The notes beneath the pieces are model-generated. The model was not told the origin of the DNA. It saw only the letters and a list, made by a program, of their open reading frames with translations, and ran no database searches. DNA of 64,000 nt from Trypanosoma brucei (Eukaryota). This document shows positions 4,089-42,477 of the stretch, in pieces. Numbering within the stretch: position 1 is the first letter of the stretch; every line of letters starts with the position of its first letter. A program made the position numbers and the translations under genes. The stretch is from the NCBI GenBank assembly GCA_000002445.1, contig CP000071.1:800001-864000 (forward strand), in the 5' to 3' direction.

Positions 4089-4369
4089 AGCGGTTGGAGA
4101 CGGAGACTGGAGAAACGGAGTGGACGCCCGTAGCCCGCGGGAGGTCGTTTTCAGCCTTTTTTACCGCCACACTGGCGCTTCCGTATGCATATCGTTGGCA
4201 TGTCCGTTGTACCCGTTACGCCTCAACGTTGCTTGAGCGTTGCTGCGAAACTGGATGTAATGGAACGTGTGTCTTAATAACATCATTGATGACATTTCCT
4301 TTCTCTCACCTCCGTTCTCTTCGCTGGAATGCATGTTTAGCCACCGGAGCACTTTTGTCAAAGTAGTCT

Positions 4370-6538: not shown

Positions 6539-6881
6539 CAAGTGAGACATTCACACTTTTCACGTTCCCTCCTTAAGAGCTTTCGCCACGGCCGTGCTTC
6601 GGCGTCTTCGTTCTTTTTTTTTTTTTGTTCAGTGTTTCAGTTACCTGTGGGTCTTGATGCCTGCTTAAGTAACGGTAATAAATGCGTTTAATTAGAATTA
6701 AGTTTCCAGAGTGGATGGTATTCCACTGATTCCACGCGCGAGCCAGCGCCGCTCCAAGGTTTTTTTTTGAACTCCAAAGTATACCACTTGCATTCTGCTA
6801 CACATTCATAAATGTGCGCTGTCGTTTTCGGCTACACACTTGGCGGGGGTTTAGGGGCAAGGTTAGTGGTCGCAAAAGATC

Positions 6882-26300: not shown

Positions 26301-26652
26301 CAAGAGAACTGGAGATGACGAGGCTGATAGTGATGACGAGCTTGCGAGCAGCGTTGTGGTAGGGGGCAGTGCACCACGCGGACCAAAGCCTGAGAGTGCA
26401 CATCCCGATACCGGTGTGAAACTTGTGTTGAAGGAGCTGGCAGCTGTGCGTGAAGCTGTCAGTGCCCTTGCGCGGGAGGCCACAATGGAAGGGGAGCGGA
26501 CGAGGGGACTCGCCCAGCAGCTAGAGCTCATAAACCGCAGCAGCCAGAGCTCATCACTGCGGAAGTTTCCCGGCGGGGGCAGCGCAGCATCGGTTGCTGA
26601 GACGAGCACAAGCAAGGGGACGTGGTTGCGGCACTCCGAACCAGAACACTAA
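17353..26652 (+). CDS. IP3R: Inositol 1,4,5-trisphosphate receptor / RyR-family intracellular Ca2+ release channel
   Basis: 3099-aa ORF. C-terminal six-TM channel domain. Pore helix and selectivity filter ...CFTFILWQGLRQGGGVGDVMD (GGGVGD is IP3R-type; RyR has GGGIGD). S6 FFALVNVVFLNIMFGIIIDTFGELRD followed by the conserved C-terminal CFICGL..AH..H motif. The N-terminal region is compatible with suppressor/IP3-binding folds. The length matches my recollection of the T. brucei acidocalcisomal IP3R (3099 aa). Confidence 0.95.
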   Translation: MSQSRVPIRYGAFIHLSCDEGYVTAGGLGNEGLFIRNKNELSDDAEPLPLFGFETSVFQILPPTVAKVAAEEGLSKGNRAPNSNPLSDGVSNIYSTQQVTFGQLFVLVHAVSRLHVAALPSEPSERDPDCARLVLAPPGEIEQTFCQFIFTPRYTTHGEGDVVCRGDEVLVQLSSIPIFLQTTVVSPTRPVKHETFGSASFPYEPTDGCGRGNSWSAGTRMALSAVLGAPEVNLSEAKALVFVVERYDIDRDKAEHQRILHRIPRPCVSAGVPVIFYHLEHKRVLATSVAMPPCQGGGKIGVSGVAPRGNEGGGERDHLLKTRQTHSVMGNVTVICHASGRFAAAGSSKSQGSDSHSAGATSLDSDPCSTKGKAPDDRKRVNGVGGAALPLFAVDKGVADGTFSEEGALSGLQCSCTALWILENEQPTVGGAVNMNSGVYRLRQACSNLYVAVEGSAVDTILEGDGSPEGSVVSQRSCCNLTGDIVNEEGGDVVRPTTLSMIPPPRTPKDLQRTLFRLSPMFNTDCGYLIENDCLLLQNVATDMYLCTSEGSETLSLSWKPSNIDLIVVRRAATDVQDSVLFLWSQCETLSGYRDAFQVLTTEGTATHQQQTETDGEHGQGRYPSAEGSTSPTLMEGRMAIVSDYNHIPESFVRPSKTCPKGSNVGTGYASLLPVICACQRTLAELIIFCSISPERNVLRRDGIPIPNHQHMLVELCVHRLVIDVILAPFSKFGVRADRSVGKHAQCCGQWGCSSWLPPLPLSGGVVDVNDLLLKMHREIHIVCRLGFRLLRQMVRQAPELKAGFENYIPYFLAFDGYKLEVVDSLTRLFSENPAVRNSSLELVVNHYIAGLHLTRSGRYLQLLCSMCSVGTHGVTERQRLVCQKLLVENANALYSFVLDSGGEWAVKTDKDEPPIPCNILFSGQQQDGGEEEGTKLREYVQSELELLGALCLDGCPPLCREEVAKVFPSPVLLMALRNFSPKWPEVSDRSRVCDVVRSHLIRLAMHCYILPYIDDPAVQLREGAVLLGSSKLHLKVDEKTAFSGKPDSELTQAVKEGTLHVIRSNTHFVRSDTGRSILIRAALAAWLRFVSAHQVSATETACLVPLLLELLDSRDDEAHDGSSKIAEYTWTRLEVSEAGLLVVRAREMICQILLQILETATYRAANEINLLLHGILVTDHGASLAHQHDYCSLLRRADVSSTGDPFVTSPTERDALLWHKGKANDGNGNRCFGLNRRKGPSDYQSTVAGSAVTTQLSGSTKDVAAFLDYVKGICSCIVRPLRVDQLVPRLVDLAHHDGSQLAPYAMELLVRICTVRRSVARLVLQVHPFPSSEVIQCFDNMYFAAVQVRSSYIRGSVEEAIDVALQGIDGLSTQTQNEVTGTTNEGRVDDGGTDEYYNDLTEDDEEIEEIGICEEQEVEASSSSAPEDQHEVGGESKARRLWSKAAGAARIVVYRNAIIARRRSVGLSETSRVPLRVVVRAETVRHWQVHITMLEMYPFIGPSSPAFSKWMRFFYVFTLSQSNAESLKAYIDIFMGAFNLSSNCVVMGLHIVLSILATIKDPTPHLTDAFLRESARYIDGEIAALHPDGEFATKLGLHVFTKTTVGGIPRRRMLQLLRDYDAFRCLPSPGVTEKHGRGRFTACIVEMVCRICGTSMGAVALGRSALPVTHLLEITLSYGTSYTPLVEVPRPRALWESNSFHLLGAYLLALVSLYIAAGDAGGDGGRRQRQMEWMANRDWWSVVLLLSRQLKELTRLMQSRTETVLWRGRRILQRYRRLWLVNLPLALLTFMTECFNEAGFYRYRDVVGATFHEMCMSVAGFSEVLLASADAIRLQAREMVGYRRLVALLQVQTGNLVGHELLSGTMLTTRRNLRHGVICYYKKINEAEEEARGLHPDALLLAETGPQAENDGIQGGLIATADVPTHTQNDADDSSPMGLLISGAATKCLDAERLRGALRSLVNRDQLITMEDSTDLGEPAGIMNALLLSCRERSNVLDFVSTTLGCMRERSFGSITLIGMLNIFSNALHTALREQERERLKHVSAENSSVITDIFTVRSFETDYAKENAGRLLQTTFSDLGATRAIASLCAVDDQVVAYSAVQLCVGLLEGGNEHAQKALLAYFQEHQERFFHNIRDMLHKAVDWVQCTNAEHQIVVLERGGVVPNVSNAHEFTRMLLTNALTTPPSLYSSLKVRVGRGTAVARRRLSAWDRAGGSLNQRFVCTLFRMLQLFCEGHNLSMQNYIRSQYDNLHSVNAVHEVMNLITEIAAVVHPATVRMLQSAFALLTELCQGPCHENQEALLGYGVCVVISKLLSRLNLPDVTGTPSTGTGITNWGGGDSNSTDNKASVDCCTLNETDSEGNAFLRLQGGFLLSKDDAGNLRIALTQCLLSLIEGCRSRDVFHQLLEQIPVEVIERELTTVDPGAYDSILENEELASDPGVEALFNWLIFLKTVRPYAEADYLKRIDAMLQHTNKLCTRLGFIEIQRADGMLEKVLFRIPHVWRGLMRRNRKQMLAEINCSSRAAKLGDFMYHSDNVIFEVERSYAFQCWVERRTRWRLDNRSSGWRGKECDAGKVDTSVDAGKPRWTPKWKQCSDAPKYFWNHFIAPVLFCTHLGFYEYSSLLVAVVLNIALINGEGRHRNLEESQLWANIISGLCVLQLVLSLIAITVDTIVFFPVSLYVHYRQKQQRFSGRAKFNETLQGVLRGLSAKEISLLLVTRFSFQYRLLLVVMAVLSIFVSYYFAAAHLTLMVYTFPTLRTFVSAITHNGRQLLLTALLGVMGLYLFAIAGRIMFPEQFGSNGEVDENSGKKNDENGNCDTLLRCFTFILWQGLRQGGGVGDVMDEVSWNSSTLVPRVSYDLIFFALVNVVFLNIMFGIIIDTFGELRDDRRERENELRSTCFICGLDADTLEKGQVGGFRAHVEDAHNMWMYLYFIHYLRHKDPNEFTGQESYVHEKIQRNDLSFFPEEDCLALQECREGNGKRTGDDEADSDDELASSVVVGGSAPRGPKPESAHPDTGVKLVLKELAAVREAVSALAREATMEGERTRGLAQQLELINRSSQSSSLRKFPGGGSAASVAETSTSKGTWLRHSEPEH

Positions 26653-28597
26653 TTTACCGTGCTGGAAGAAGCTCACGGAGGAAAGCGATGACACGCGGTT
26701 CTTCAACTAGAGCTAAAGCACAGGTGTTTAGTCCTATACTCGAACAGAAGTATACACATAAATATATATATATATATTCATTGATATGTTCTTGATTCAC
26801 AAACATCCGGAATGTTACTGAGCCGATTTGACGCTGATAGTGGCGTGTTTCTATCGTTATTTTTTTTTCGTAAACAAGAAAAGTTGTTACCCATGATCGT
26901 GTGGGGTGCTGTAACGCACGTATAATCCCCAGCGGTGCATTCTATTATCGTTTATTTTGACCTTTTTTTCTGTTCCTTAAACCCCCCACGCGTACGTTGT
27001 TTGATCGGAAGGAATGAACAAGTGAGAAAGCAAAGTGTACATCTATGCGTTCGCCGCAACTTGCATTAATATTAGCTTGGTTACTTAACCGTTCGTATCA
27101 CTCTCCCTCACGTGCACTAATGTTTAGTCCCCTGCTTTAGGTTGATTTTTATTTTTTGTTACACATCAGTGGCCCTTTCTAACCTCGTACTTGACACGCG
27201 ACACATTACTGCGAGTGCTCTTCTTTTCTCGCTTGAGCAAGTGATGAGGTTTTTTCCCCCATCCCTTCAAGCAATCAACTCTATCTTCTTTTCTCATTAA
27301 CACGGCTGGCTATTCGGTGACATTCCAGCACCGAACAGTCAGTGATGTGATGTCGGGATCTTCTGTCGTACATATGCTGCATTTGAAGGTACTTTCCACA
27401 CCTGATTTCGTCACTGATGCCCAACTACCAGCAGACAGTTGGGAACCCCACGCAATCAGAAAGTAAGTGATGTACAGTTTCTTGTGGTCCACGGACTGCT
27501 TGGGAAGTGCCGGGTGAAATTTTTGGTCATAAAGACCAGCCTCTCGTACTACTTTCATAATGCCTGGCCCCATCGAGGTTCTGAATACAACGGGACTTGT
27601 GCTATGATGCGCCTCTCGGCGATAAGAGGACCACGTGGTGGGGGTTGCAGTTGAGCTCAAGTGGGGGTAAAAATGGTTCTGAGCCTCGTGTTCACGGTGA
27701 TTCTCAAGATTTGTAAATCCCATAAGTCTGGTATCACAGTTGGGACGCTTTTGTTGTTGTTTGTTGACAGATTGCCGTCGCACTATCACTGATGGATCTG
27801 CCTCTAGTATAACTGGATCAAATCCTTTGTCCTGTGCAAGATCTCCTTTAGTGGAACCTACGTGGGTACTCCGCCCCGAGAAGCGTCGCAGAAATACCGC
27901 AGGTTTGCACACTCATTCACAGTCCAGTATTTCCTGTCCCGGACCTCAGAGTCCCGGCGCGTTGCACTTGCAATATGTACCGAATCTGACCTTTCAGGGA
28001 CTTCGTTAGGTATTGGGCTCTTGCTGCTGAGACCAAAAGACTTGATGCTGCATGTTTAACGACGGCGGGTAGCCTTCTGTGGTCCGCGATACTATTCAAT
28101 GCTAGTGATTAGGTGTTCTTTACTCTTGTGCTCCCCCCTCCTTCGTCGCGGCACCGTGGTAAAAGTATCGGCGGGCGTACTGCTTTCACTGGTGGTCGCT
28201 GTTGCCGTTGTTACATTTGCTCCCCTACAAGCGCTAATACCCTTTTGTTGTTGTTCTTTTCCTGTTTATCTTGGTGTTCCATACGAATACATACGTGCGG
28301 TAAAGAATAGTTTCAACTCAGTCGACTTCTTCACGGCGGTCCGCATATACGTACACGTGTACGCTCCATCTCGTCAACGCACAGAGGCAACACAAAAGGA
28401 AGAGCACTTGCGCAAGGAAACAAAGAGGAAAGAAGGTTCAAAGCAGTCAGTTGATATACATACGTATATACAGTTTGCGCGGTACAACGGACAGTGAAAC
28501 AAAGGGGATCTTGCTCGTTTTGGCCGATTTGTTTTTGTACTCGCCGAAACTCCGTCTTGCTGCATCTCTTTGTAAGTTGTTGACAAACATCTGTAAG

Positions 28598-29518
28598 ATG
28601 GGAGACTCGATATCACCTTCGGAATTACTTCCAGGGCACGCTGGGGAAGAACATTTCTTATCACTTGAAGAAGGAACGACTCCGCAGGTCCACCGGCAGG
28701 AAGTGACTACAGATGCAATGACAAACCTTCAACGGCGTAACGTTTATGTCTCTGGCCTCCCGGAAACGTACCGTGCTTCCGAGTTTCGTGATCTGTGTCA
28801 GTCGTTCGGTCGGGTGGAGGCGTCGAAACTCTGCGTTGACAGTAAGTGCCGGCCGGCGAAGGGTTATGGTTTTGCACTTTTCTTCGAGGAGGAGGACGCA
28901 TTGAAGTGCATCGAAGGACTTAACGGCCGAGTGCTTATGGGCGGCCGACCGTTGCAAGCACGAATAGCAGACGCCGCTGCAGCGCCCGCGCCACTGGACC
29001 CATCAATAGCCCACCCGCCCATTAGCCGCACGCGTCAGGGAATGAAAAGTCACCACCGACAGCTTGGCGCAAGCATCAGCAGCGGAAGCGGTCCTCTCGA
29101 CAGCTCCATCGTTCTCGGGCGGAGCATGTCCTTTTCCTCTCGAGATGATCTTACAGGCTCACAACTCGGGCTCGCAACAGCACTCATCCCGGGAACCGGA
29201 ACCCCATCGGCCCCGACAGCTCTGCACGCACCGATGCAAGCGCCAATTCACGGTGCAGGGGTCACACAACCACCAGGGGCCGTTGGTTACTCACTCGCGC
29301 CGTTCCCTGTGCCTGGTGGCTACATGCCTGTTGGGCACTCCTTCATTCCGCAACAAACTGTTGGCATGCCTCTATTTGTGACTATGCCACAAACCGCGCC
29401 CGTCTCCACTACTGTTGCACAGCAGGTCGTCGTCCCGACGACAGCAATTGTCGCACCGAACGGCTATACACCACAGCTTTGTTCATCGCTGGTGTATCCT
29501 CCGGTTCGAATGGAGTGA
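28598..29518 (+). CDS. RBP10: Single-RRM RNA-binding protein, candidate RBP10 ortholog. The ORF is open from 28451, but the start is taken at the Met at 28598, giving 306 aa.
   Basis: RRM with RNP2 VYVSGL and RNP1 KGYGFALF. C-terminal low-complexity Q/P/A-rich tail. It lies immediately downstream of the IP3R gene and is followed by a multi-kb low-complexity 3' region, which matches what I recall of T. brucei RBP10 (306 aa, ~7 kb 3' UTR). The ortholog assignment is from memory and unverified. Confidence 0.8.
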   Translation: MGDSISPSELLPGHAGEEHFLSLEEGTTPQVHRQEVTTDAMTNLQRRNVYVSGLPETYRASEFRDLCQSFGRVEASKLCVDSKCRPAKGYGFALFFEEEDALKCIEGLNGRVLMGGRPLQARIADAAAAPAPLDPSIAHPPISRTRQGMKSHHRQLGASISSGSGPLDSSIVLGRSMSFSSRDDLTGSQLGLATALIPGTGTPSAPTALHAPMQAPIHGAGVTQPPGAVGYSLAPFPVPGGYMPVGHSFIPQQTVGMPLFVTMPQTAPVSTTVAQQVVVPTTAIVAPNGYTPQLCSSLVYPPVRME

Positions 29519-30970
29519 TGGCACAGAGGGTAACGAAGTAGGAATTTTTGCCGCCAGCTGAGGTCGTTTACCTTGGGTTGGCTGTCATGGAGATAGGGAA
29601 GAGAGAAGCAACATCGCGTGCAAGGAAAAACGAACAGAAGAATCGATCCCTCCCCCCTCCATGAGTCCTTCTTCGTTTATAATTTCGGCTGTTGTTTTTG
29701 CTGTCACCTTTTTTTTTCTTCCTTCTCGTTCGCCACACCCTCTCCTCAACCTCCTTTACCTCCATGGATCTCTCGGCAGCAGTCCCCCTCCCCTCATTCC
29801 CCTCATGTTTTGGTGGTCGCCTTATTGGCACCTCTTTTCGTCATTTTTTCCCCCCACTTGCTGCAGTTCAAGGCGTATTTGTGGGGAGAGTAAAGAACAT
29901 AAGTGAAATCTGAAAACAATAGAAAAGAGAGATGAATTAATTAATGAATGAATGGGAGAAATAAGGAGGAGAGGTGGTGGAGAGCTGGGGAACTGTAATG
30001 AAGAAGAAAAAAAAGAAGAACGAGGGAAAGGTAGATTCAGTGGGGGAGACAAAACAGTGAAGAAGAATCTGGCGGAAAGCAACAATAAGTGTGAAAATGA
30101 GAACGAAGGTGTGAATGATTCTTCAGTTTAAGAAACCACACGTGAAGAAGGACAGAATATATAAATAAATATATCTATTTATATGTTGATGTCTCAGAAG
30201 AAAAAAAGCAAAGGAGGGGAGATAGAAGAGGTTTAAAGGGAGGAAGGAAGACAGGCCCTGAAACCAATAAAACAAAATAAATAAATAAAGAAACGCGAAA
30301 TCAAAACTGAAAATGCGAAAAAAAAAACGAAGAACAAGAAGGGTGCAATGAAGGAATGAACTCCACAGAGAGAATACCCGTTCAAACATTCTTTTCTTCG
30401 TTTTTCCCCTCCTCCTCTCCCCGACGCAACCGCCCCCCTTTTTTTTCTATAATTGGCTCTTCTGACCCACACCCCCTCACTTTCCTTCTCAAAGAACGGC
30501 ATCTTGTTTTCCCACCCTTTATTATTGTTAATTTCTTTTTTCGCTTTACTATTATTATTATTATTTACCACCCCATCACCGTTACTTTTAGTTGTTTTTT
30601 TTTTTTTTATGCCTCTCTCCTTTCATTTTTTTGCGCTTTTGCTCCTCCTTATTGGTTATGTAGAGCGATTTATATAAATCTAATATATATATATATATAT
30701 ATATTTGTATTCATATATTTTATGTCTTATATACATAACTACTTTCGCGCAGAAAAGGGAAAGAGGAAAGGAGAAGAAGGGGGAAAATAGAAAGCCCATG
30801 CACATATATATATATATATATTTATTTATTTGTTTATTTATTTATATATATATATATATGTATTCTTTGTACCTCCCTTTCGTTTTTACTTTGTTTTTTG
30901 TTTTACCTTTTTTTTGTTTCTACTTTGTTTCTTGTTTTGTTTACTGTTAGTCACTCCTTACTATTTTTAC

Positions 30971-31110
30971 CGCCTCTATTATTATCACTATTATTATTAT
31001 TATTATTACTATTATTATTCCTATTATTATTATTATTATTCCTATTATTATTATTATTATTATTCCTATTATTATTATTATTCCTATTACTACTGCTATT
31101 ATTATTGTTA
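30971..31110. repeat. Imperfect (TTA)n/(TAT)n microsatellite punctuated by CC (cctattattattatt... x4-5)
   Basis: Direct reading of the sequence. Confidence 0.9.
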
Positions 31111-33336
31111 TTTCTGGGGCTACTGCAGTGCTTTCCCTTTCTTTTTCTTTGGGTGTTCGCGTGGTTGAGATTGTGATGTGACTTCTGTTTGCTGACGATT
31201 GTTTGTTTCTATTTGATTGTGCCGGTGTCTGTTTTCCCCCACCCCCGTGATGTCACGAAGAAAAACAAAAATTAAATTGAAAAGTTTTTACTTCTCCTCG
31301 TCCAAAGCAATTGCTCTCCTCCTTCCTTTTCTCCACACGCGCGCACGTACGTAGTGAACTAATCAAAGAGTGAAGAAATAAAAATAAAAACACGCGTCGT
31401 GTTGTGGATCCCTTTTTCGGATCCAATTTGCGCTATTGCTTTTTTTTGTTAGTATTATTGTTTTGTGCTTTTTTTTTTCTTTTTCTGTGTGTGTAATATG
31501 ATTTTGTCGCTTTTCATTCAGCGGAAGCAGACAGTAAAGTTATGGGCTCATATGCTTGCATGTGCATTCCATCCGATATTGCGCGGGAGTTGTTGTTTTG
31601 TTTTGTTTTTCACACCTTCGTCCCTTTTTTTTTTCTTTTTGGTTTTTATTGTTTGTATATATTTTCATATTTATGTACATATATTAGGAGCAAATGCATG
31701 CGTGTTTGTGCTTTAACGCCCATGTGTGCGCCCCTTGGCTTGCTTTCCCACAAATACCCTTTCGAAACGCCTTACGGAAGCGGGGACAATATAATTAAGA
31801 AGAAAGGGAGATGGGGGGGAAAAAAAAAAGAGAAAGAGAAAGAGAAACACCGGCTCGTAGACATGAGGAGAGGAATCAAAAAAAAGACAATGAAATGAAA
31901 TAAAGTTAAGTGAAGTGAATTGAAACGAGGTAAGAATTTAAGAAGTTAAGAAAGCTGGTGACCCGCCGTCGCTTTTCTACTTCATTCCACTCTTTTTTTT
32001 TCTTCTTTTCTTTTTTTTCCCATCCTTTTCCTTTTTTTTTGCTAGTTTTTGATCCGCTTTGCCTTTGCATCTTATCTTTCCATTGCTCCCACTTTTTTTT
32101 TATTGTTTCTTTTTTTTTCCCCCTGTTGTTGTCACCATTATTATGTCATGTTATGTCATCGGTACTACGACAGTTGCATTATGATAGTTATTATTTTTGT
32201 TCTTTCTTTTTTGTTCTCGTTTTGTGACGTTGATGTTTGGTTTCATTTTTATTTTTGCGGTTACCTTTTTGTTTTTATTCGCTTTTTTTTTCCTTTTTGG
32301 TTTATTTATTTGTACTTGGTGAAAAGGAAAAAAAACAAAAAATATATATATATATAGATACAGAAGCAGAGGAAGAGAGAAAGAGAGAATGAATGAATGA
32401 ATGAATACGATGAAGAAGATATTGGAATAGAGGTGGAAAGGGAGGGGGAAAAAAAAAAAAGAGGAAAGGGTGACGCGGTTGAGTTGACGGTAAACAAAAC
32501 AGAAACGATAAGAAAAATAATGCACAAAATTCTTCCCCTTCTGTTCCTGTTTTTCGTTTCTTTGTTTGTTTTGTTTTGTTTCGTCTTCTGTTTGGTACCG
32601 CATCACCCGTTACCATGGCCCTCAATATGTCTTTATTATCATTATTATTATTATTATTATTATTACTATCCGTTACTGTTATCCTTCATTGGCATGATGT
32701 TTTTCCGCCGATATTTCACATCTTTTCATTGACTCTTATTATTTTTCACTTCATCCATGCCGACTCTGCAGTACTTGTAGAAATTTCATTGAAACAGTAT
32801 TTTGACGAAAAGGAAGCAAGAAAGTTAAAAATTAATGTAATGTAATGCAATGCAATGTAATGTAATGTAATAAAAAAGTAATAACAATGACAAACCTAAT
32901 AACTATCATAATTATAAGAGAAATTGAAAGAAAGGACAAGGTAGGGTGGAAAAGGAAGCAAAAGAGGGAGAAGGGGGTGAAAAAAAAAATTAATTGTTTA
33001 AGGCTTGAGAAGGGAAAACGGCACTGTAGTAGAGAATGAGAAGGAATAAAAATAAGTGCGTGAGTAAATGGATGAATCAACAACTAAGTGAATGAGCATT
33101 TTCATGTACACAAAAAAAAAAATGAAAAGACGTGTTTGACTCACAAAGGGGAGGAAGAATAGCATGAAAGGTAAATATTTGTGTCAGAATAAAAAAGAAA
33201 CTAAGAATAAAAAAGAAATAATAACAATAATAAAGTGAGGCAGAAAATGATGTTTCCACACCATTGGGATTGTTAAATGTTGCGATTTGGAGAGGAGGGA
33301 ACGCGTGTTGACTGACGTGGTGATGAAAATTTTTTT

Positions 33337-33371
33337 GTTTTGTTTTGTTTTGTTTTGTTTTGTTTTGTTTG
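33337..33371. repeat. (GTTTT)7 pentanucleotide microsatellite. A related (CTGTTTT)3 lies at ~33478-33512.
   Basis: Direct reading of the sequence. Confidence 0.9.
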
Positions 33372-36300
33372 AGGGTCACACGTGTTCCACAACTCCTCCT
33401 TTTGTTTTATTTTGTTTCCGCCCTCCCTCGTTCCCCCTTTCTGCGTTTCCCCTTTTTTTTTCTTTTTTTTTCTTTTTTTTTTTCTGTTTTCTGTTTTCTG
33501 TTTTGTTTTGTTTTTTTTTTTTGCATCCCATCGATTTGAGAGTTATAAAAGACGAGGAAAAGCGGAATGTTTCTCGTGCGACGAGAGCTGGACATGTAAA
33601 ACACAAAGGGAAATTAAGGAAGTAAATAAAAGTAAAAAAAAAAGAAAAGAAGAAAAACGAAAAAGAAAAAAGGAAAAAGGAAAAAAAAAAGCACCCGAGT
33701 GGGTAGAGGATATGCTGGCAATAGTGTGGTCAGTTTATTTTAAAGAGGGAATATGTGGAGGGAAGGGAAATTTTTTGAATATAAATATTTACTCCCACAA
33801 CATGCCGGAAATATATATTAATATTTGAAAAAAAAAAGAGAGAGAGAGAGAGAAAGAAAGAGATGGATTGGAAGGTAAGGTAAGGTAAAGAAGTAAAGTG
33901 AATGAAGCGCGTTGATAATAAATTAAGAGGAAATAAAAAATGTGAAGGATTTGAAGAAGTTTTGTTGGTGCTACTTTCAAGTGAAACTAAACAAAATATG
34001 TGAAGGACGTAATCAATATTTATTTGTTTGTTTGATGACGCTTCTATCCATCTGTCTTCCTTTTGCTTGTAATTTCACTTTTGTATTTTCCCTCCTTCCC
34101 CTCATCGTTTGTTTTTTCATACTTTTTTTACTTTTTTTTTGTGTTTGTATGGTTGGTTGTTCCGCGTATTGCGTTTAAAAAAAAAAAGTATTGAATAGCA
34201 TTGTCGTTCGTGGACCTGGCGCCCTATTTTTTTTTGTTTTTTTTTGTTTTGTTTTACTTTATTTTCACCTTGGATATGGGCATATGATACAAATAAAATA
34301 ATAATTAAAAAAGGGGAAGTGAGGCTTAGTGAACAAACGAAAAGGAAGTCAAATGAAATAATAATTTCTTTATTAAAGTGGTAAAAGAACAAGAATGACG
34401 TTAACGATGAAATGAGCTCCACATATGTCAGGTACTTGAAATCACGTAAAAGATAAAGAATGATTTAAAGGAAGATTAGAGAATATGAGGAGTTAGAAAA
34501 GAGCAAGTAAGTAAGGGTAAGTATATTCTAAGGGAAATGCTACTTGTACTTATAATTAATGACAATAATAGGGAGGGCAAACCAAATATATATAAATATA
34601 AATAAAGATATATATATATATATATATACATATATTTGATTAAAGGAGCGAGAGAAAAGGGGGGGCAGAAACGAACAAAATAAAGTTAGTGAAGGAAAAA
34701 AGAACTGAATAATAAGGTGCTTTCCTTACCGCATTTGTGAGCCACCCCTCATCCCCACATGTACGAGAGCATTTTTCATCGTTTTCGTTCCTCAACAAAC
34801 TTTTGTGCGATGAGGTGGTGGATGAGGAGTGGCAGTGCCAAAAGTAAACAAATGGATCTATATTTCCATTTTTGTTACTTATGAATGTTCACACCTTATC
34901 TTGTTTTTTTTTAAGTTTTCAGCCTTTTTTTTTCGTTTTTTTCTTTTAAATTGTGTGTGTGAGCTCTTTTTTTTTTTTACGCTTCCTCCCACCCCCATTG
35001 CGGGATCCGCTTTGCAAAGAGGAAATATTTTGAGGTATGTGGAGGGCTCCCGTGTCCTCATATATGTAAGCAGCGCTTTTTTTTCGTTATGCTAATTTGA
35101 AAAGGAATTTTCATGTATGTACATAGTTAATATAAAGAAATATATTTATATATTTATAATATACAATATATACAAGAAATATACATACATGTTTCTGTGA
35201 CCGTCTATCTAACTGTCTGACCATCTAATTGACTGACCGACTGGCTGTTTGTTTGTTGTTTTTTTTTTTTCGTTTGCGTGTAAACATAGATACATCATAA
35301 TGGAGTGGCCTCTCATGTGTATGTGCGGGTGCATCCATGTGTGCATGTCTCGTGTTTCCGTTTATTGTCATTATTATTGTTTGTATTCCTTGTTTCGCAC
35401 CTTGTGTGTGTTTGCTTGTTCGTGTTCGCCTACTTTTTTTTTTGCTTTTTTTTTGTTTTTGTTTTTCCTCCTTCCCTTTTATGTGAACCATGGCTATCAT
35501 TTCTTATTATTACTGACATTATAGCTATTGTTATTGTTTACTGTTGCTACTGACATTCCTCCCTGGGTGAATTTCAATTATTTGTGATCTCCTTCTCGTG
35601 TTTTTCCCCCATCTTCTTCAGTCTTTCCTTTTTCTTTTTTTTTGTCTGCTTCGTGTTGACGTTAGTTTTCTGTTTTTGATGTGCGTGCAGTTTTTGTTGT
35701 TTCAACTAAATTAATTTTTCTGTTTTTTCCTTGAGGTCCTGCGCGCGGTGGCGAGAAAAAACAAAAGTAAATGTCAAATAATGGCTGGTTTTTCGACAAG
35801 GTTAACAGAATTCAAAAGGAATAAACAGTTTTTAAAAGAGAAAAAAACGGTGAAATATATATATATATATATATATTTAAAGCTGACAGATATACAAATA
35901 CGTGTGTGATCCTGTGTGATTGTGTGTTTGTGCTCACATTAGAAAGTAAATAAACAAATTTAATGTGCTTTTCTGCCGTCGAAACTTCCCTCCGCTCCCG
36001 TGTTTTGTCTTTGACGTGATATGCAGTGTGCGGATGAGGTTGTTACCACTTTTCTTTTTGTTGTTGTTGTCGTTTCTTCGCTTTTTTTTGGGGGGGGGTT
36101 TCAGTTTTTGGCTTTTGGCTTTATTATTGCCGCTTAATGGATGGAGAAGGGAGAGGGAGGCGATAGAAGCAAAGAAGAGTTCTGTTTGTTTGCTCGCTGC
36201 GGACTTCTGTTCACTTTGATTTAATATCCGGAAAGGAGCAAAAAAAGAAAAGTATAATTCATTTGACATTTCTTGAGCAAGTCGTACAATGAGTGAGCAT

Positions 36301-36599
36301 ACAAATACTTGCAGCATCCGTTCTCTTCCCTCCTTAATCTTTCTCAGACTCTTCCCCTGTCATCTACTTTATTGTTTATTGTACTGTTCCCTTTCTATTT
36401 TGTTTCTGTTTTCGTTTGTGTTTGTGTTAAATCCGATAATCATCAACAGCATCTAACCGGTATTTTGTTTTATCCGTGGTAACGAAAAGAAAAAGAAAAA
36501 AGAGAGACAATAATATATCTCTGTTAATGCCCACGTTAAACTATATATTTTTGTAGGAAGGAGAGAAGAGGGTATGGACCTGCTAAGGGAATTACATAT

Positions 36600-36760
36600 T
36601 TGTTCCCTTCTGTATGAACCACACTTACCTACGGTTTTTGTTGTTTTTTTTTTGTCTTTGTTCCTCTTGTTTTGGTTTGGTTTTTTTTTTTGGTTTCGTT
36701 TCGTTTCTATTTCCTTTTTTTCTATTTGTTTTACGTCTTTGATTGTCTCGTTGCGCGGGA
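36600..36760 (+). promoter_or_regulatory. Long polypyrimidine block, candidate polyadenylation/trans-splicing signal at the end of the RBP10-like 3' region
   Basis: ~160 nt that are almost exclusively T/C (ttttgttgttttttttttgtctttgttcctcttgttttggttt...). Its function is inferred from the general trypanosomatid mechanism. Confidence 0.4.
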
Positions 36761-37771
36761 AGAGGAATACGAGTAAGGGGAGAGAACAGAAGAAAAGAAA
36801 AGGAGACAAGAAGAAAAAGGAAATTTTGTTTATTCCTTATGCTTTCAAAACTCTTTTCCCGTATCAGTGTGCGTGTACGTGTGTGACTGCCTCGATACAA
36901 CTGGTTTCACTTTCGTGCCCTATCATCTGCTCCTTCTCTTTACCTCTTTTTTTTTCTTTTTTCTGTTCCTTTCATTCTGCTCTCACGTTCAACAACCACA
37001 CAGTGAATTTTATTATTTATTAACTTTATTATTACGACAATATATATATATACGGTCGCTACTGTTAGCTTACCGTCAATATCAGTAACCATGTCACGCG
37101 GTTCACAAATGTTAAATTTAATAACAGTAATAAAACGAATATACAATTGAATAGACGTGCAGAAGTTTCGAAGTTAAGTCGAAAGAGCAAAAAAGTTAAA
37201 GAAAAAAATATGTAGAGGGTGGAGCCAACAATAACGTATGGGAGGAATGAATGTGCTTTATGTCCGTGACGGAGGCGTAAAATGATGATGAACTGAAGTT
37301 ATGGAAACTAACAAAATAAGGGAAAGGACATATATATATATATATATATGCGTGCATATATTGTGCCGGAAGGAAGCGGAAATATACACTGAAGCGTACC
37401 GGTCAAAAATTGAAAGTGCGGAACCCCGCGTCTCCGCGTAGTGTCACCTGTTATCCGCGCATTTTCTTAGTGTCTCTGCTTTTAGCGTTGCACATCACCT
37501 TTGCAACAACCGAGTTATCGCCGTTTCACACCTGTGGCACAGATTTTCGTGGCTCCTTCATGACACTTATGCTCACTTTACATCTCACCTGCCGTTTTTC
37601 ATCAAAAGTAAAGACCTTCCGTAGGGATGTTGAGGAACGAAATGACGAAGTATTAAGTCTGTCGTCACTGCGGACAGCTTCTGGCGTGGCACCAAAACAC
37701 TCCTACTGAAAGAGCTCAGTGACGCCGCGCTCGCCATTTGTGAGGCAGAGGGCCACAACGTCCAGTGCCTC

Positions 37772-38092
37772 GTGTACGATCGGTCCAAACGGGAAAATGT
37801 TCCCATGACAGAGGGCCGCGATGCGTGGTACAGCGACGTTGTAGAGACCCTCACGGCAAGTGAGCTCGCGGATTGCCCCGTTGTATGGATTGGGGCGGAG
37901 GATCCCCTTTTCCTCTTGTACACCTCTGGCAGCACTGGTAAACCCAAGGCAATCTTGCATACGCTGGGAGGTTACAATTCACTTTCTGTAATATGGTGCG
38001 CACACAGAATGAACTGCAGTTTCACCGCAGGGGGGCTGCTGTATTTTCCTGGTCTTGAACCAAATTTGCGCTCTCCACGGCGGAGACACTAG
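37772..38092 (+). pseudogene. Acetyl-CoA synthetase (AMP-forming, ANL superfamily) gene fragment or relic
   Basis: The 106-aa ORF contains the near-perfect AMP-binding signature DPLFLLYTSGSTGKPKAILHTLGGY, and upstream WYSDVV...SELADCPVVWIGAEDPLF resembles ACS. Similarity decays after GGY, and the ORF is bounded by stops. Full-length ACS is ~650 aa, so this is a truncated, degenerate remnant. Confidence 0.6.
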
Positions 38093-38280
38093 ACACACCC
38101 AACCCGGTCTGCGTTCGTCTTTGACCTCCCGTTTCAAGGGTGGCACGGCATTGATTATTTACCTCTGCCATTTGGAACGGTCAGGCCATAATGTTCGACT
38201 CGCTCTCCTTAACCCCCCCTCCCCCACCTGCAGTCAGTCGGTGCCATGTTCGCCGTTGAGCGAAACTGATTTTTTTTAAG

Positions 38281-39459
38281 GTGAGTGGTGTTAACCTCTA
38301 TTTTCGTGCCCTTTGTCTCCAATCCCACACTGTCTCTGCTGTCTATTTAGGAAGCCAACGAATGGGTTGTCTCCCTCCCGACGATTTGGGGCCGTTTGTT
38401 TCAGACCATGTTGATGTTAACGAGGCGGAGCCTGTTCCCCTGAGTGACGAGGACCTCGATCTACTTGTGCGGTACTCCCTTCTCCCCACTGATGTCGTGA
38501 GAGAAGCGTGGGCCGTCTTCAACCACTACCGTGTAGTAGAGTGCCTCCGGGCCCAGCAGCGCCATTACGCTATGACAGGTCATTTACCACAGAAGTCAAC
38601 GGTGTCCATGTCAGCGAGGCCGTTTCCGGTGGCGGAATGTGGTGGGAAGCTCTTCACAACTCCGGTTAGGGCCGCCAGTGGCGATTGCAACGCGGTGAAA
38701 GAGGAGGAGAAGGCTCCAGTTAGTCCGAGAGATTGTGTGACCGGTGAAAATTCAGAATGCAGAAAGGAGGAAGTGGAGGTGGCGGTTTTGGGCGCGGAAG
38801 GCCTCCGGCAATTCTTTGAGGATACCGGAGCGCCGATCCCCACGCTTGAGGTGACTTCCTTTCTTCGGCGGATGTCACAGCCCCCTGTAGAGTACTTGCT
38901 GTACCAGCGTGCACTGGAAGAGAAACTGACTGGCGCTGCAGCAGCTGCTGCACCTCCCAGAGAGGAATCGCCAGGGGTTGGCCAAAGAAAAAAGTCTCCA
39001 CAAACTGATCAATCGAAGCACAACAAAGGCCAAAGTGTAGGGCGTGGTCAACGACCGAATAACAACACGAAATCGCTGAATATTCTCGTTGATGACCACA
39101 TCGACCTGTTGGAGGAACAGAGGGGTTCTGGAGGGGAAACGGTGACATTTCCGCTTTTCCTCTACATCTTGTCGAATGCTGAGTTGGGAAAAAATTTCAC
39201 CGCTGATGTCCGCGAGAGTGAAATAAATACCTTGTTTCGGACATTAGACGTGGATGGTGATGGCGTTGTTTCCGTGGACGATATCCAACGGCTACTGGAA
39301 GAGCGGTGCTCACTTGGAGACACGTTGTATGAGGACCGTGACATTCGGTACCTGCGAGGAATGAACCTAACTGAGCTGAAGGCTGCGCTGCGGGAGTGCG
39401 ATGTTGACGAGGACGGGGCGGTGAGACTAAACGACTTTCGCTCAGTTTTGAGTTCGTGA
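38281..39459 (+). CDS. EF-hand calcium-binding protein
   Basis: Two C-terminal canonical EF loops: DVDGDGVVSVDDIQRLLEE and CDVDEDGAVRLNDF. A poly(Y) tract (ctctccttaaccccccctcccccacctgcag) at 38203-38233 precedes it. The start is possibly the Met at 38359. Confidence 0.7.
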   Translation: MSGVNLYFRALCLQSHTVSAVYLGSQRMGCLPPDDLGPFVSDHVDVNEAEPVPLSDEDLDLLVRYSLLPTDVVREAWAVFNHYRVVECLRAQQRHYAMTGHLPQKSTVSMSARPFPVAECGGKLFTTPVRAASGDCNAVKEEEKAPVSPRDCVTGENSECRKEEVEVAVLGAEGLRQFFEDTGAPIPTLEVTSFLRRMSQPPVEYLLYQRALEEKLTGAAAAAAPPREESPGVGQRKKSPQTDQSKHNKGQSVGRGQRPNNNTKSLNILVDDHIDLLEEQRGSGGETVTFPLFLYILSNAELGKNFTADVRESEINTLFRTLDVDGDGVVSVDDIQRLLEERCSLGDTLYEDRDIRYLRGMNLTELKAALRECDVDEDGAVRLNDFRSVLSS

Positions 39460-39870
39460 GCTATACACAGCATTAGTTTCCTAGAGTATATGCAATTACC
39501 GGAGATCTCCAATTACCCTTACATATATATATATTATTTTTTCGACTCCTTTGTGAGTGGAAAAATTATGTGTAGGGTAGCAGGAGCTGAACTAATGTAT
39601 AGAACGTGGGTAAGAACATGGAAAGAAGGCAGTAACCGTCGTGAAAATGTTGTGCCGATGTGCACATTTGTGAGGCCTGATTTGTACTCGTCAGACGTGA
39701 GGGTCTACACCTCTGTTATACGCTGCGCTCACTCGCGTCCCCTATCTTATCCTTTATTTCTTTCACATCCGCATTCTTTCATTTTCGTTTCTTTTTTTAT
39801 TTTGCATGATGTCTTGTTCACGATAATCAATGTTAACCACCAATTTATCGGGTGGAGGGTCTTTGCAGAA

Positions 39871-42477
39871 ATGGGTGTCCCATTACTTCTCACTTGGTTA
39901 AGGCGACGGTTTGCGGCGTGTTTTCTCCCTAGCAACAGTAACGTGAGTGCCGACTGCTTGTACATCGATGTCAATGGACTGGTGTACCAGGCAGCCACCC
40001 TCGCTACTTCTGGTGGCGGGGACCCAGCAGACATCGAGGCAGCCATTCTGCGCAGACTGTTTGATCTCCTGGACGACATTGTGTTACGTCTCGTCCGGCC
40101 GCGCTCGCTGGTGTATCTGGCTGTTGATGGTATTTCACCCATGGGAAAACTCGCCCAACAGCGCTCACGACGACGACGGCGACGACGCCAGGACCCGCAT
40201 TCACACGTTCGTACCACGGAATGGGACAGCAACAGCATCAGCGTTGGAACGTCTTTCATGTCATCTCTGACGGATGCACTGCACTTTTATTGCGCAAGTC
40301 GCGCGGAGCGCATAAATGTGGAGCGGCTTCGTGAGTATAAGCAACGTGACGTTGGGAAAGACGTTGCAAGCGCTGGTTTCCCAGCCAACGAGAAAGCAGC
40401 ACCCTCGCTCATTACGTTTGTGTCAGATAACGTGTGGCGTCCCGGTGAGGGCGAGTCGAAGATCGCAGATGCCATACGGCGCTTTCGCTCGCAACCAAGC
40501 TATGATCCAAACACCGCGCACGTCATTTGTAGTTCAGACACGGATGTGACTGTGTGTTCTCTGATACTACACGAACCTAACATTCATGTACTGCGCTATG
40601 AACATGTTTCAGCTAGCACCGCCAAAGGTGGCAACAATAACTGGCAAACCTACGCAGGCGACAGCTGGGCGTCCACATTCTTCAGTATCTACGCTTTCCG
40701 TGAAGAACTTCGACTAAGGCTCCGGATAGAGCAAACTCGTAGTAACACTATGTCGGCTGAGGAGCTGGAAAAACTCAACAAACAGTTTGAGGCTGCTCTT
40801 CATGACGTGGTGTTTGTGTTGCTCTTGTTTGGAAACGACTTTTTACCATCCGTCGGATGTCGAATTGAGGAGGGCTTTCTTGACAGTCTCCTGGAGATGC
40901 TCGCCACTGACTTCGTTACACGGGGACGATCTATCGTTGATCCAGTTACTAACACCATTCAATTCGATGCTGCACGATACGCCCTGGAGTCTCTCGCAGA
41001 GATGCGCAACGAGCGTTCGAGTGGGCTCCAAGTTGACAACGGTGCAGAAGGTGCCGCAGATTGGGGGTTCGTTAATGAACAATTTCTGCAGCGGAAGGCA
41101 GCAGAGGAGGCAGAGAAGGCGCCTTGGTGTTACGCCTATTGGACAATGCTGCAGTGGTCACTGCAAAACAGCGCTGGTGTCGTGGAGCACTGGGGTTGCT
41201 ACTACCCCTATAGTACCGCGCCCCCGTTGCATCTGCTTCAAAAGTACTGCGGAACACTCTCATATGATGCCCTGATGGAGTTAGCGGAGAAGAGGAGCCG
41301 TAGGAAAGTTGGCCACCACAATCGGGCCCACGATGGGACTAACTCAGGCTCAGGGGAACGGGGGGTGAGGCTGCGGGGACCGGGGCCCACCGACGTGCTG
41401 GTGCAGCTGCTCGTCCTTCTGCCTACTCGTAGTATCGCGCTGCTCCCAACTGCAGTGCGAAAGGGATATTCGGAAATTGAGCCCATTGTAGTTGCCCCTG
41501 TGGAGGAAATCGACTTTGCTGCAGTCCAAACGTGGTGCGCAACGAAACGGGGGTTGTTCACGGAGGAGGAACGCGTGCGGTTCGATGCGTACGCACTCGC
41601 CGCGAGTGACCATCTGGTTGCGGGCGACGTGCATGCAAAATGTGTTCGGGGAAACGAGATGCTTTTTGTCGCTGACTGGAATGCTGAGGAGCTTGCCGCG
41701 GAGTTGAGAGAACTCGAGGAAATAGTGCAAGGTGGGGGTGGCACCCGCAGTGACGGATCGTCCAGTAGCAAAAAGCAGACAGACACCCTAAACAGTGCAA
41801 CCGGCGTTTTCACGTCTTTTTTCTCTGCGAGAAACGCAGGAAAGACATCGGCAGCGGTAGCAGCCTTACTTAGCGCCCCGAAATTCTCCAGAAATATCGG
41901 AGAGGGGGGCACCGGCAATGCCGACACTGTCACCACAAGCAGCGGCATCCCAAATATAAATGGCACCTCAAACAACACCGATAGAGATGTCTTACAGCAA
42001 TCGATTGACGTCGACGTGCTGAGTGCCGCAAACTTCACCTTTCATACTGTTTCGACATCAGCACTAAAGGGTGAATCGATGGTCCGTCGGGTTGGTAACA
42101 TCACTGGGGACACCTTCGAGTGTGGTTCGTACAGCGTCGGTCCGTTGTCGCGCAATCAGAAAACGATGCGCGTCAGATTGCGGTGGCGCGTTGCGTCCAG
42201 GCCGCCCCGAGACGCTGCACCATTTTTGCCGTATTTGCTTTCAGGCTTGAAGCCCCGGCAGAAAAGTGCAGAAGGTGATGGAACCGCCGGAAAGGAGGGG
42301 GTGAAGCGCCCCCGGTCGGAGGTAGCCAAATCGGCGGGGGATGATGACGCCAAGAAGAATGTTTTCGACGACTTCACACAGCAAACAATGTTACACGATA
42401 CCTTGCAGGAGAAAAAAGAGGCCCTGCGACGCCGTCTGGAGGCACTTCAGGGGGGAAATGCCACCCTGGGGACCTAA
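39871..42477 (+). CDS. XRN-family 5'-3' exoribonuclease (XRNB/XRNC-like size). The ORF is open from 39490, but the conserved start is MGVP at 39871.
   Basis: XRN N-terminal signature MGVP..(L)..WL..R. Catalytic-domain blocks LYIDVNGLVYQAA, LVYLAVDGISPMGKLAQQRSRRRRR and GEGESKIADAIR. The basic/acidic low-complexity C-terminus is typical of the family. 869 aa from MGVP. Confidence 0.85.
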   Translation: MGVPLLLTWLRRRFAACFLPSNSNVSADCLYIDVNGLVYQAATLATSGGGDPADIEAAILRRLFDLLDDIVLRLVRPRSLVYLAVDGISPMGKLAQQRSRRRRRRRQDPHSHVRTTEWDSNSISVGTSFMSSLTDALHFYCASRAERINVERLREYKQRDVGKDVASAGFPANEKAAPSLITFVSDNVWRPGEGESKIADAIRRFRSQPSYDPNTAHVICSSDTDVTVCSLILHEPNIHVLRYEHVSASTAKGGNNNWQTYAGDSWASTFFSIYAFREELRLRLRIEQTRSNTMSAEELEKLNKQFEAALHDVVFVLLLFGNDFLPSVGCRIEEGFLDSLLEMLATDFVTRGRSIVDPVTNTIQFDAARYALESLAEMRNERSSGLQVDNGAEGAADWGFVNEQFLQRKAAEEAEKAPWCYAYWTMLQWSLQNSAGVVEHWGCYYPYSTAPPLHLLQKYCGTLSYDALMELAEKRSRRKVGHHNRAHDGTNSGSGERGVRLRGPGPTDVLVQLLVLLPTRSIALLPTAVRKGYSEIEPIVVAPVEEIDFAAVQTWCATKRGLFTEEERVRFDAYALAASDHLVAGDVHAKCVRGNEMLFVADWNAEELAAELRELEEIVQGGGGTRSDGSSSSKKQTDTLNSATGVFTSFFSARNAGKTSAAVAALLSAPKFSRNIGEGGTGNADTVTTSSGIPNINGTSNNTDRDVLQQSIDVDVLSAANFTFHTVSTSALKGESMVRRVGNITGDTFECGSYSVGPLSRNQKTMRVRLRWRVASRPPRDAAPFLPYLLSGLKPRQKSAEGDGTAGKEGVKRPRSEVAKSAGDDDAKKNVFDDFTQQTMLHDTLQEKKEALRRRLEALQGGNATLGT

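What the first reader, a model, noticed from the sequence alone, without database searches (positions are those of the whole stretch)
28598..36800. Small RRM protein gene followed by a ~7 kb low-complexity 3' region, candidate RBP10 with its regulatory mega-UTR
A 306-aa single-RRM ORF is followed by ~7-8 kb with no credible coding potential. That stretch consists of U-rich tracts and microsatellites: (TTA)n, (GTTTT)n, (TA)n, (GA)n, (AATGYA)n, poly(T)/poly(A) runs and a GGATCC...GGATCC hairpin at ~31407-31430. The next strong poly(Y) block is at ~36.6-36.76 kb. Such an extreme UTR-to-CDS ratio is typical of developmentally regulated trypanosome RNA-binding-protein mRNAs. For T. brucei RBP10, a ~7.3 kb 3' UTR with multiple redundant stage-specific elements has been described (recalled, not checked). 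The repeat-rich composition suggests many dispersed, partly redundant protein-binding sites.
Basis: partly seen in the sequence, partly recalled or inferred. Interest (0 to 1): 0.6.

Follow-up and report, generated by a model that had tools for sequence, protein, structure and literature searches.

The report
Trypanosoma brucei RBP10 gene and mega-UTR

Summary
The observation and the interpretation both hold, and the feature is already published. ORF 28598-29518 encodes a 306-aa single-RRM protein. It is 100% identical to annotated RBP10 of the T. brucei group and lies just downstream of the IP3 receptor gene. Window 29519-36823 matches the published 7305-nt RBP10 3'-UTR at 7304 of 7305 positions with no gaps (Bishola Tshitenge et al. 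2022, PMC8982893).

The stretch is AT-rich (GC 0.35 against about 0.52 in flanking genes) and full of microsatellites and homopolymers. It has no credible coding or known-RNA content. The literature shows an mRNA of about 8.5 kb. It also shows at least six independent bloodstream-form-specific elements, an (AU)n enhancer, and DRBD18-dependent suppression of internal polyadenylation sites.

- The "AATGYA" repeat is a 5-mer.
- The 36.6-36.76 kb block is U/G-rich, not pure pyrimidine.
- UA(U)6 motifs are not enriched (1 copy).

One side observation may be new. The T. cruzi orthologue is followed by a 6.8 kb gene-free stretch. That stretch shows the same alternation of purine-rich and pyrimidine-rich blocks, but no sequence similarity.

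The parts
28598..29518 (+). RBP10 coding sequence (306 aa plus stop), Tb927.8.2780
   Evidence: ORF. 100% identity and 100% coverage to annotated RBP10 P0001. Orthologues: T. congolense 73%, T. vivax 48%, T. cruzi 46%.
28742..28942 (+). Single RNA recognition motif (aa 49-115)
   Evidence: Pfam RRM_1, E 3.5e-13, 49.7 bits.
29519..36823 (+). Published RBP10 3'-UTR, 7305 nt
   Evidence: blastn against the sequence in S1 Text of PMC8982893: 7304 of 7305 identical, 0 gaps. GC 0.35; base composition T 0.365, A 0.289.
29519..30136 (+). Fragment 1.1 (UTR 1-618): low expression in procyclics, stimulates expression in bloodstream forms
   Evidence: Fragment coordinates from S2 Table plus offset 29518. 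Activity from PMC8982893.
30116..30800 (+). Fragment 1.2 (UTR 598-1282): bloodstream-specific. Contains the (AU)11 repeat whose deletion sharply lowers bloodstream expression.
   Evidence: (TA)n at 30671-30704.
31284..31518 (+). Fragment 1.4 (UTR 1766-2000): the shortest bloodstream-specific fragment, 234 nt. Regulation is lost when it is cut at UTR position 1874.
31405..31425 (+). Hairpin UGGAUCC, 7-nt loop, GGAUCCA (two BamHI sites). It lies inside half-fragment 1.4.2.
   Evidence: strand folding gives -14.3 kcal/mol with outer stem 31399-31402/31430-31433, z -3.85, 0 of 200 shuffles as stable. Its function is untested.
32748..33541 (+). Fragment 2.2.2 (UTR 3230-4023): bloodstream-specific
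33542..35517 (+). Fragment 3 (UTR 4024-5999): low in procyclics. Sub-fragment 3.1 (33542-34049) is high in bloodstream forms. Sub-fragment 3.2.2 (34726-35517) is repressive in both forms.
35518..37598 (+). Fragment 4 (UTR 6000-8080): low in procyclics. It spans the natural poly(A) site and the intergenic processing signals.
   Evidence: The reporter mRNA was about 989 nt shorter than read-through would give, consistent with use of the genomic site.
30977..31112 (+). (UAU/UUA)n microsatellite, about 45 units with interspersed CC
   Evidence: TRF score 160; repeat families D4/D7.
33452..33691 (+). U-rich arm (33452-33519) and A-rich arm (33624-33691), 68 nt each, 74% complementary, 104 nt apart. 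They straddle the boundary between fragments 2 and 3.
   Evidence: Inverted repeat I1. Low-complexity complementarity; pairing is untested.
36637..36745 (+). It lies inside the UTR, just upstream of the published end.
   Evidence: Read from the sequence. No pure pyrimidine run of 18 nt or more here.
36943..37003 (+). 22-nt pure polypyrimidine tract (36943-36964) plus the first AG (37002-37003). Inferred trans-splicing signal of the downstream transcript, which would set the RBP10 poly(A) site about 120 nt upstream.
   Evidence: The rule that poly(A) sites are set by the downstream splice signal is stated in PMC9380746. The assignment of this particular tract is inference.

Best explanation
The window carries Trypanosoma brucei chromosome 8 around Tb927.8.2780. 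The gene encodes RBP10, a single-RRM protein made only in mammal-infective forms. The roughly 7.3 kb after its stop codon is its 3'-UTR, window 29519-36823.

**How it works, shown in the literature.**
- The whole stretch is transcribed as part of one mRNA of about 8.5 kb.
- It is a long cis-regulatory platform. At least six separate segments each suffice to keep expression low in procyclic (insect) forms, mainly at the level of translation and also through mRNA decay.
- Other segments, including an (AU)n repeat, boost expression in bloodstream forms.
- The many internal polypyrimidine tracts are potential trans-splicing and polyadenylation signals.
- The RNA-binding protein DRBD18 associates with the mRNA. 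Its presence keeps these internal sites unused, so the full-length mRNA is made and exported.

**Inferred here.** The normal poly(A) site near 36823 is set by the polypyrimidine tract at 36943-36964 and the AG at 37002 of the downstream transcript.

**Authors' hypothesis.** The redundancy is a fail-safe against truncation of the UTR or loss of one regulator.
For: **Shown here.**
- The protein is 100% identical to annotated RBP10 and has an RRM.
- The IP3 receptor gene lies immediately upstream, as in the T. equiperdum, T. cruzi, T. theileri and T. conorhini loci.
- The UTR matches the published sequence at 7304 of 7305 nt.
- No coding signal: the longest ORF is 150 aa. Local-composition shuffles give 116-124, and 17-31 of 200 reach 150. 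Codon log-likelihood is about 0, against 0.07-0.19 bits per codon for genes of the window.
- The six longest ORFs in the UTR have no Pfam hits. tblastx finds no conserved ORF in the orthologous loci: only scattered 7-30-residue matches in the T. cruzi stretch, and nothing elsewhere.
- No Rfam family reaches its threshold and there is no tRNA.
- There are 13 pure pyrimidine tracts of 18 nt or more inside the UTR, each followed by an AG within 4-84 nt.

**Shown in the literature.**
- 7.3 kb UTR, 8.5 kb Northern band, allele replacement showing sufficiency, and mapping of the six fragments (PMC8982893).
- (AU)n deletion effect.
- Shortened RBP10 mRNAs and loss of reads over the last 2 kb after DRBD18 depletion (PMC9380746).
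- DRBD18 associates with RBP10 mRNA (PMC10653379).
Against: - The exact poly(A) site has not been mapped at nucleotide level. 3'-RACE failed because of the low complexity. The end at 36823 rests on read density and Northern size.
- No trans-acting factor has been assigned to any of the six fragments, and no enriched short motif was found. The 'many binding sites' mechanism is resolved only to fragments of 234 nt or more.
- Part of the middle of the UTR is reported to be duplicated on an unassigned TREU927 contig, which complicates read mapping.
- Medium and short RBP10 mRNA isoforms are also seen without DRBD18 RNAi.
Confidence: 0.96

Rival explanations
1. The low-complexity stretch is mostly untranscribed or unprocessed intergenic spacer. 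On this view RBP10 mRNA normally ends close to the stop codon at one of the internal polypyrimidine-tract-linked sites.
For: There are 13 internal pure pyrimidine tracts of 18 nt or more followed by an AG. Shorter RBP10 mRNAs exist, and they accumulate when DRBD18 is depleted.
Against: The Northern band is about 8.5 kb, and RNA-seq coverage runs across the whole stretch in bloodstream forms. A reporter replacing the ORF at the locus is regulated. The fragment 4 reporter uses the genomic end signals.
Confidence: 0.02
2. One or more unannotated small protein-coding genes or structured non-coding RNAs lie inside 29.6-36.8 kb.
For: There are 20 ATG ORFs of 60 aa or more, against 8-11 expected from local-composition shuffles. 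One 600-nt window, 34319-34918, folds with z -3.9.
Against: - The ORF excess is what microsatellites and purine-only or pyrimidine-only blocks produce, because they contain no stop codons.
- The longest ORF is not unusual, and codon usage is non-coding-like.
- The translations are F/L/K/E-rich low complexity, with no Pfam hits.
- tblastx against T. cruzi, T. theileri, T. vivax and T. conorhini shows no conserved reading frame: only scattered matches of 7-30 residues against T. cruzi, and none against the others.
- Rfam hits are all at least 60 bits below their gathering thresholds.
- Fold z-scores are in the same range as the CDS controls.
Confidence: 0.02
3. RBP10 autoregulates through UA(U)6 sites in its own long UTR. 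This is the motif class the reader proposed to enumerate.
For: RBP10 is reported to bind UA(U)6 in target mRNAs (cited in PMC10653379). The UTR is very U-rich.
Against: There is only one UAUUUUUU (34225), against 3.3 +/- 1.7 in dinucleotide shuffles, and 288 of 300 shuffles have at least as many. RBP10 targets are procyclic-specific mRNAs destined for destruction, whereas RBP10 mRNA is stable in the stage where the protein is present.
Confidence: 0.03

Closest known systems
T. brucei RBP10 (Tb927.8.2780) mRNA with its 7.3 kb 3'-UTR (Bishola Tshitenge et al. 2022, PMC8982893; Bishola Tshitenge and Clayton 2022, PMC9380746)
   Same: The protein is identical. The UTR is identical at 7304 of 7305 nt. 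The upstream neighbour is the same, Tb927.8.2770 (IP3 receptor). The repeats noted by the authors are the same: (AU)n, poly(A) and U-tracts.
   Different: Nothing of substance. There is one substitution, at window 30327: C here and in the paper's own fragment 1 sequence, G in the paper's 'Full sequence'.
Orthologous RBP10 loci of other Trypanosoma: T. cruzi L001, T. theileri L002
   Same: The gene order IP3 receptor then RBP10 is kept. RBP10 is followed by a long gene-free, AT-rich stretch: 6.76 kb in T. cruzi and about 7.6 kb in T. theileri, of which 3.2 kb are assembly gaps. In T. cruzi 47% of 60-nt windows are at least 70% purine or at least 70% pyrimidine and the blocks alternate, as in T. 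brucei at 49%.
   Different: There is no collinear nucleotide similarity, only scattered low-complexity matches on both strands. The transcript ends in those species are not known to me.
T. brucei PGKC 3'-UTR and other bloodstream-form-specific 3'-UTRs
   Same: Several independent elements each confer bloodstream-specific expression, and they share no short motif.
   Different: The PGKC UTR is much shorter and has two regulatory regions of 125 and 153 nt. The RBP10 UTR is about 8 times the length of its own CDS.

Membership tests
T. brucei RBP10 gene (Tb927.8.2780) | Protein sequence matches annotated RBP10 over its full length (306 aa) | tested here: met
   100% identity and 100% coverage to P0001, length 306, E 3.7e-199.
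T. brucei RBP10 gene (Tb927.8.2780) | Single RNA recognition motif | tested here: met
   One RRM_1 stretch at aa 49-115 and no other Pfam domain.
T. brucei RBP10 gene (Tb927.8.2780) | Chromosomal context: directly downstream of Tb927.8.2770 on the same strand | tested here: met
   A 3099-aa IP3/ryanodine-receptor ORF at 17353-26652 (+). The same order is seen in the T. equiperdum, T. cruzi, T. theileri and T. conorhini loci. PMC9380746 names Tb927.8.2770 as the upstream gene.
Published RBP10 7.3 kb 3'-UTR | Sequence identity with the UTR used in the mapping study | tested here: met
   7304 of 7305 identical, no gaps, window 29519-36823.
Published RBP10 7.3 kb 3'-UTR | The stretch is part of one mRNA that is polyadenylated about 7.3 kb after the stop | not testable with these tools
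   This comes from the literature only: RNA-seq, ribosome profiling and an 8.5 kb Northern band. 3'-RACE failed.
Published RBP10 7.3 kb 3'-UTR | Multiple independent segments confer bloodstream-form-specific expression | not testable with these tools
   This comes from the literature only: reporter assays in PMC8982893. Here the fragments were only mapped to window coordinates.
Non-coding 3'-UTR (absence of a gene) | No ORF with coding-like codon usage, domain or cross-species conservation; no known RNA family | tested here: met
RBP10 target mRNAs (UA(U)6-containing 3'-UTRs) | Enrichment of UA(U)6 in the 3'-UTR | tested here: not met
   1 copy against 3.3 +/- 1.7 expected.
Classical AU-rich-element (ARE) mRNAs | Clustered AUUUA pentamers or UUAUUUA(U/A)(U/A) nonamers | tested here: inconclusive
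   AUUUA occurs 18 times against 26.3 expected, so it is not enriched. UUUAUUUA occurs 4 times against 1.4 expected (19 of 300 shuffles reach 4), and 3 of the 4 lie in one (UUUA)n array at 30821-30844.

The most novel reading that the evidence does not exclude
The roughly 7 kb length and the alternating purine-rich and pyrimidine-rich block architecture of the RBP10 3' region may be under selection across the genus Trypanosoma, independently of primary sequence. The architecture is present downstream of the T. cruzi orthologue with no alignable sequence. On this reading the organisation itself is the functional unit, not specific motifs. Possible roles are loading alternating sets of pyrimidine-tract and purine-tract binding proteins, or masking internal processing sites.
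Probability: 0.2. Interest if true: 0.4.

Novelty: already known. Interest (0 to 1): 0.1.

Why it matters
RBP10 is a master post-transcriptional switch for the bloodstream-form identity of African trypanosomes, and its giant 3'-UTR is the paradigm for redundant, fail-safe developmental control in an organism without gene-specific transcription control. All of that is published, so the scan result matters mainly as a validation: a tool-less reader located and named the locus to within 23 nt of the published UTR end. The only possibly useful additions are the exact window coordinates of the mapped regulatory fragments, the lack of UA(U)6 enrichment, and the architecture without sequence conservation at the T. 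cruzi orthologue.

Tried and rejected
1. **Unusual RNA structure.** MFE z-scores of twelve 600-nt windows of the UTR ranged from +1.5 to -3.9, mean about -1. Six CDS control windows ranged from +2.0 to -4.6. There is no evidence that the purine/pyrimidine block alternation yields exceptional folding.
2. **Sequence conservation of the UTR.** blastn and tblastx against the regions downstream of the T. cruzi, T. theileri, T. vivax, T. conorhini and Phytomonas homologues gave only short, non-collinear, low-complexity matches on both strands.
3. **Hidden genes or RNAs.** ORF statistics, codon usage, Pfam, Rfam and tRNA scans were all negative.
4. **UA(U)6, ARE and UGUA motif enrichment.** None was found. 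Only homopolymers and (AU)n are enriched.
5. **Phytomonas as a fourth example of a long gene-free 3' region.** Rejected. The apparent 6.9 kb gap contains further RBP10-like RRM copies interrupted by assembly gaps, so it is a tandem array.
6. **Contigs too short to inform on UTR length.** The T. equiperdum, T. vivax and T. conorhini contigs end 0.85-1.1 kb after the stop. The T. equiperdum contig ends at window 30604, inside a poly(T) tract.
7. **Bacterial promoter/terminator scan.** Irrelevant for a trypanosome and not used.
8. **Not done.** I ran no further search on the low-complexity ORFs.
Full report
**Observation.** The window has a 306-aa ATG ORF at 28598-29518 on the + strand with a single RRM_1 domain at aa 49-115, E 3.5e-13. 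Downstream, GC drops from about 0.50-0.53 to 0.31-0.38 for seven consecutive 1-kb bins, 30001-37000. This is the only such block in the 64 kb. It is also by far the longest low-GC, ORF-poor gap in the window.

Tandem Repeats Finder lists 80 rows in 28000-38500, against one row in the 9.3 kb coding sequence just upstream. Two are described slightly wrongly. The array at 32833-32871 has period 5, not 6. The 36.6-36.76 kb block is U/G-rich rather than a pure polypyrimidine tract.

U9, A9 and (AU)>=8 runs exceed every one of 300 dinucleotide shuffles. The GGATCC...GGATCC hairpin exists at 31405-31425. It has a 7-bp stem and a 7-nt loop, and folds at -14.3 kcal/mol with an outer stem, z -3.85.

**Identity.**
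- The ORF product is 100% identical over 100% of its length to the protein annotated RBP10 in the T. brucei/T. equiperdum cluster. Orthologues are found in T. congolense (73%), T. vivax (48%), T. cruzi (46%), T. conorhini and T. theileri.
- The upstream gene, 17353-26652, is a 3099-aa IP3/ryanodine-receptor homologue. The same gene order is found in the T. equiperdum, T. cruzi, T. theileri and T. conorhini loci.
- A T. equiperdum contig aligns to window 18596-30604 at 99.9%.
- I transcribed the 'Full sequence' of the RBP10 3'-UTR from S1 Text of Bishola Tshitenge et al. 2022 (PMC8982893) and aligned it to the window. It covers 29519-36823 with 7304 of 7305 identities and no gaps.

**No gene is hidden in the stretch.**
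- The longest ATG ORF in 29519-37400 is 150 aa. Shuffles that preserve local composition give 116-124 on average, and 17-31 of 200 reach 150.
- ORFs of 60 aa or more are about twice as frequent as in those shuffles: 20 against 8-11. I attribute this to microsatellites and to purine-only or pyrimidine-only blocks, which cannot contain stop codons.
- Codon-usage log-likelihood for these ORFs is about 0 bits per codon, against 0.07-0.19 for genes of the window.
- The translations are low-complexity, and the six longest have no Pfam hit.
- tblastx against the orthologous loci shows no conserved reading frame. Only scattered matches of 7-30 residues appear against the T. cruzi stretch, and none against the other loci.
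- Rfam gives three matches, all more than 60 bits below their gathering scores. There is no tRNA.

**How it works (from the literature; not testable with these tools).**
- mRNA is about 8-fold more abundant in bloodstream than in procyclic forms. The half-life is 1-2 h against less than 30 min.
- A CAT gene replacing the RBP10 ORF at the locus is fully regulated.
- All four 2-kb quarters of the UTR gave low reporter activity in procyclic forms. Dissection defined at least six independent bloodstream-specific segments: 1.1, 1.2, 1.4, 2.2.2, 3 and 4. It also found enhancing and generally repressive segments.
- Deleting the (AU) repeat of fragment 1.2 sharply lowered bloodstream expression. No enriched short motif was found.
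- PMC9380746 shows that depleting DRBD18 produces progressively shorter RBP10 mRNAs and removes reads from the last 2 kb. This is attributed to use of internal polypyrimidine-tract-linked processing sites. Long transcripts are then retained in the nucleus.
- DRBD18 associates with RBP10 mRNA (PMC10653379).

**Mapping to window coordinates.** The alignment is ungapped, so fragment coordinates convert as n + 29518.

| Fragment | Window coordinates |
|---|---|
| 1.1 | 29519-30136 |
| 1.2 | 30116-30800 |
| 1.4 | 31284-31518 |
| 2.2.2 | 32748-33541 |
| 3 | 33542-35517 |
| 4 | 35518-37598 |

The (AU) runs I find at 30683, 30804, 30843 and 34608 fall in fragments 1.2, 1.3, 1.3 and 3.2.1, as the paper states.

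**What I can add from the sequence.**
- There are 13 pure pyrimidine tracts of 18 nt or more inside the UTR, each followed by an AG within 4-84 nt. These are candidate cryptic processing signals.
- The first such tract after the published end is 36943-36964, with an AG at 37002, about 120 nt downstream of 36823. By inference this is the signal that sets the normal poly(A) site.
- The RBP10-binding motif UA(U)6 occurs once, against 3.3 expected. Self-targeting through that motif is therefore not supported.
It sits entirely within half-fragment 1.4.2, which alone did not regulate.

**Architecture and comparison with other species.**
- The UTR is built of alternating purine-rich and pyrimidine-rich blocks of roughly 80-870 nt, in the order RYRYRYRYRYRYRYRY.... 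49% of 60-nt windows are at least 70% purine or at least 70% pyrimidine. The figure is 2% in the neighbouring CDS and 0.3% in shuffles.
- This does not translate into unusual predicted folding.
- In T. cruzi the orthologue is followed by 6.76 kb without a called gene, with GC 0.38 against 0.51 in the flank. The same alternation is present (47% biased windows), but there is no collinear sequence similarity.
- In T. theileri the gap is about 7.6 kb, but 3.2 kb of that are Ns.
- The apparent gap in Phytomonas is a tandem array of RBP10-like genes.
- PMC8982893 does not discuss other species. Whether this architecture is specific to RBP10 or typical of long trypanosome UTRs could not be tested here.

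**Verdict.** The feature is already known in detail, so novelty is nil and interest is low. The remaining uncertainty concerns the nucleotide-level poly(A) site, since 3'-RACE failed, and the identity of the trans-acting factors.

Noticed in passing
window 37646-38092 (+): A relic fragment of an acetyl-CoA synthetase gene lies just downstream of the RBP10 UTR. About 65 residues align to ACS residues 278-342 of PDB 8sf3, E 1.4e-20, including the LLYTSGSTGKPK AMP-binding motif. The rest of the roughly 700-aa enzyme is absent and the frame has no ATG. It presumably corresponds to the 'downstream gene' Tb927.8.2790 named in PMC8982893.
   Followed up: partly
L001 10991-17748 (T. cruzi); L002 11168-18770 (T. 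theileri): Orthologous RBP10 genes, also downstream of the IP3 receptor, are followed by gene-free, AT-rich stretches of 6.8 kb and about 7.6 kb. The T. cruzi stretch has the same alternating purine/pyrimidine block architecture as the T. brucei UTR, but no alignable sequence.
   Followed up: partly
L004 14090-14932 and 17502-17852 (Phytomonas sp. EM1): Additional RBP10-like RRM reading frames (RNVYISGLP...FGRVEASKLC), interrupted by runs of N, lie about 3.1 and 6.5 kb downstream of the called gene. This suggests a tandem array that the gene calls missed. Tc-38 genes lie upstream, as a Tc-38 homologue does in the window at 13493-14824.
   Followed up: partly
L005 end = window 30604; L003 and L006 contig ends: Short-read assemblies of T. 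equiperdum, T. conorhini and T. vivax all break 0.85-1.1 kb after the RBP10 stop. The T. equiperdum contig ends inside the T14 tract at 30595-30610. This shows how the low complexity hinders assembly of this UTR.
   Followed up: no
window 33452-33519 and 33624-33691: A 68-nt U-rich tract and a 68-nt A/G-rich tract are 74% complementary and 104 nt apart. They straddle the boundary between published fragments 2 and 3, so the reporter dissection separated them.
   Followed up: no
window 42913-46791 (+), with long antisense ORFs at 44178-46445 and 44537-46297: A 1292-aa ORF without Pfam hits has low amino-acid entropy (3.8 bits). Long open frames run in other frames and on the opposite strand, which indicates an internally repetitive gene.
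   Followed up: no
window 39490-42477, 52053-53813, 38281-39459: Neighbouring genes encode an XRN-family 5'-3' exonuclease homologue, a CAF1-family ribonuclease homologue and an EF-hand protein. Several mRNA-decay enzymes therefore sit within 25 kb of RBP10, which is probably coincidence.
   Followed up: no
window 30327: This is the single difference from the published 'Full sequence'. The base is C here (GAAGAACAAG) and G in the paper's full sequence, while the paper's own fragment 1 listing has C. It is likely a strain polymorphism or a typo.
   Followed up: yes
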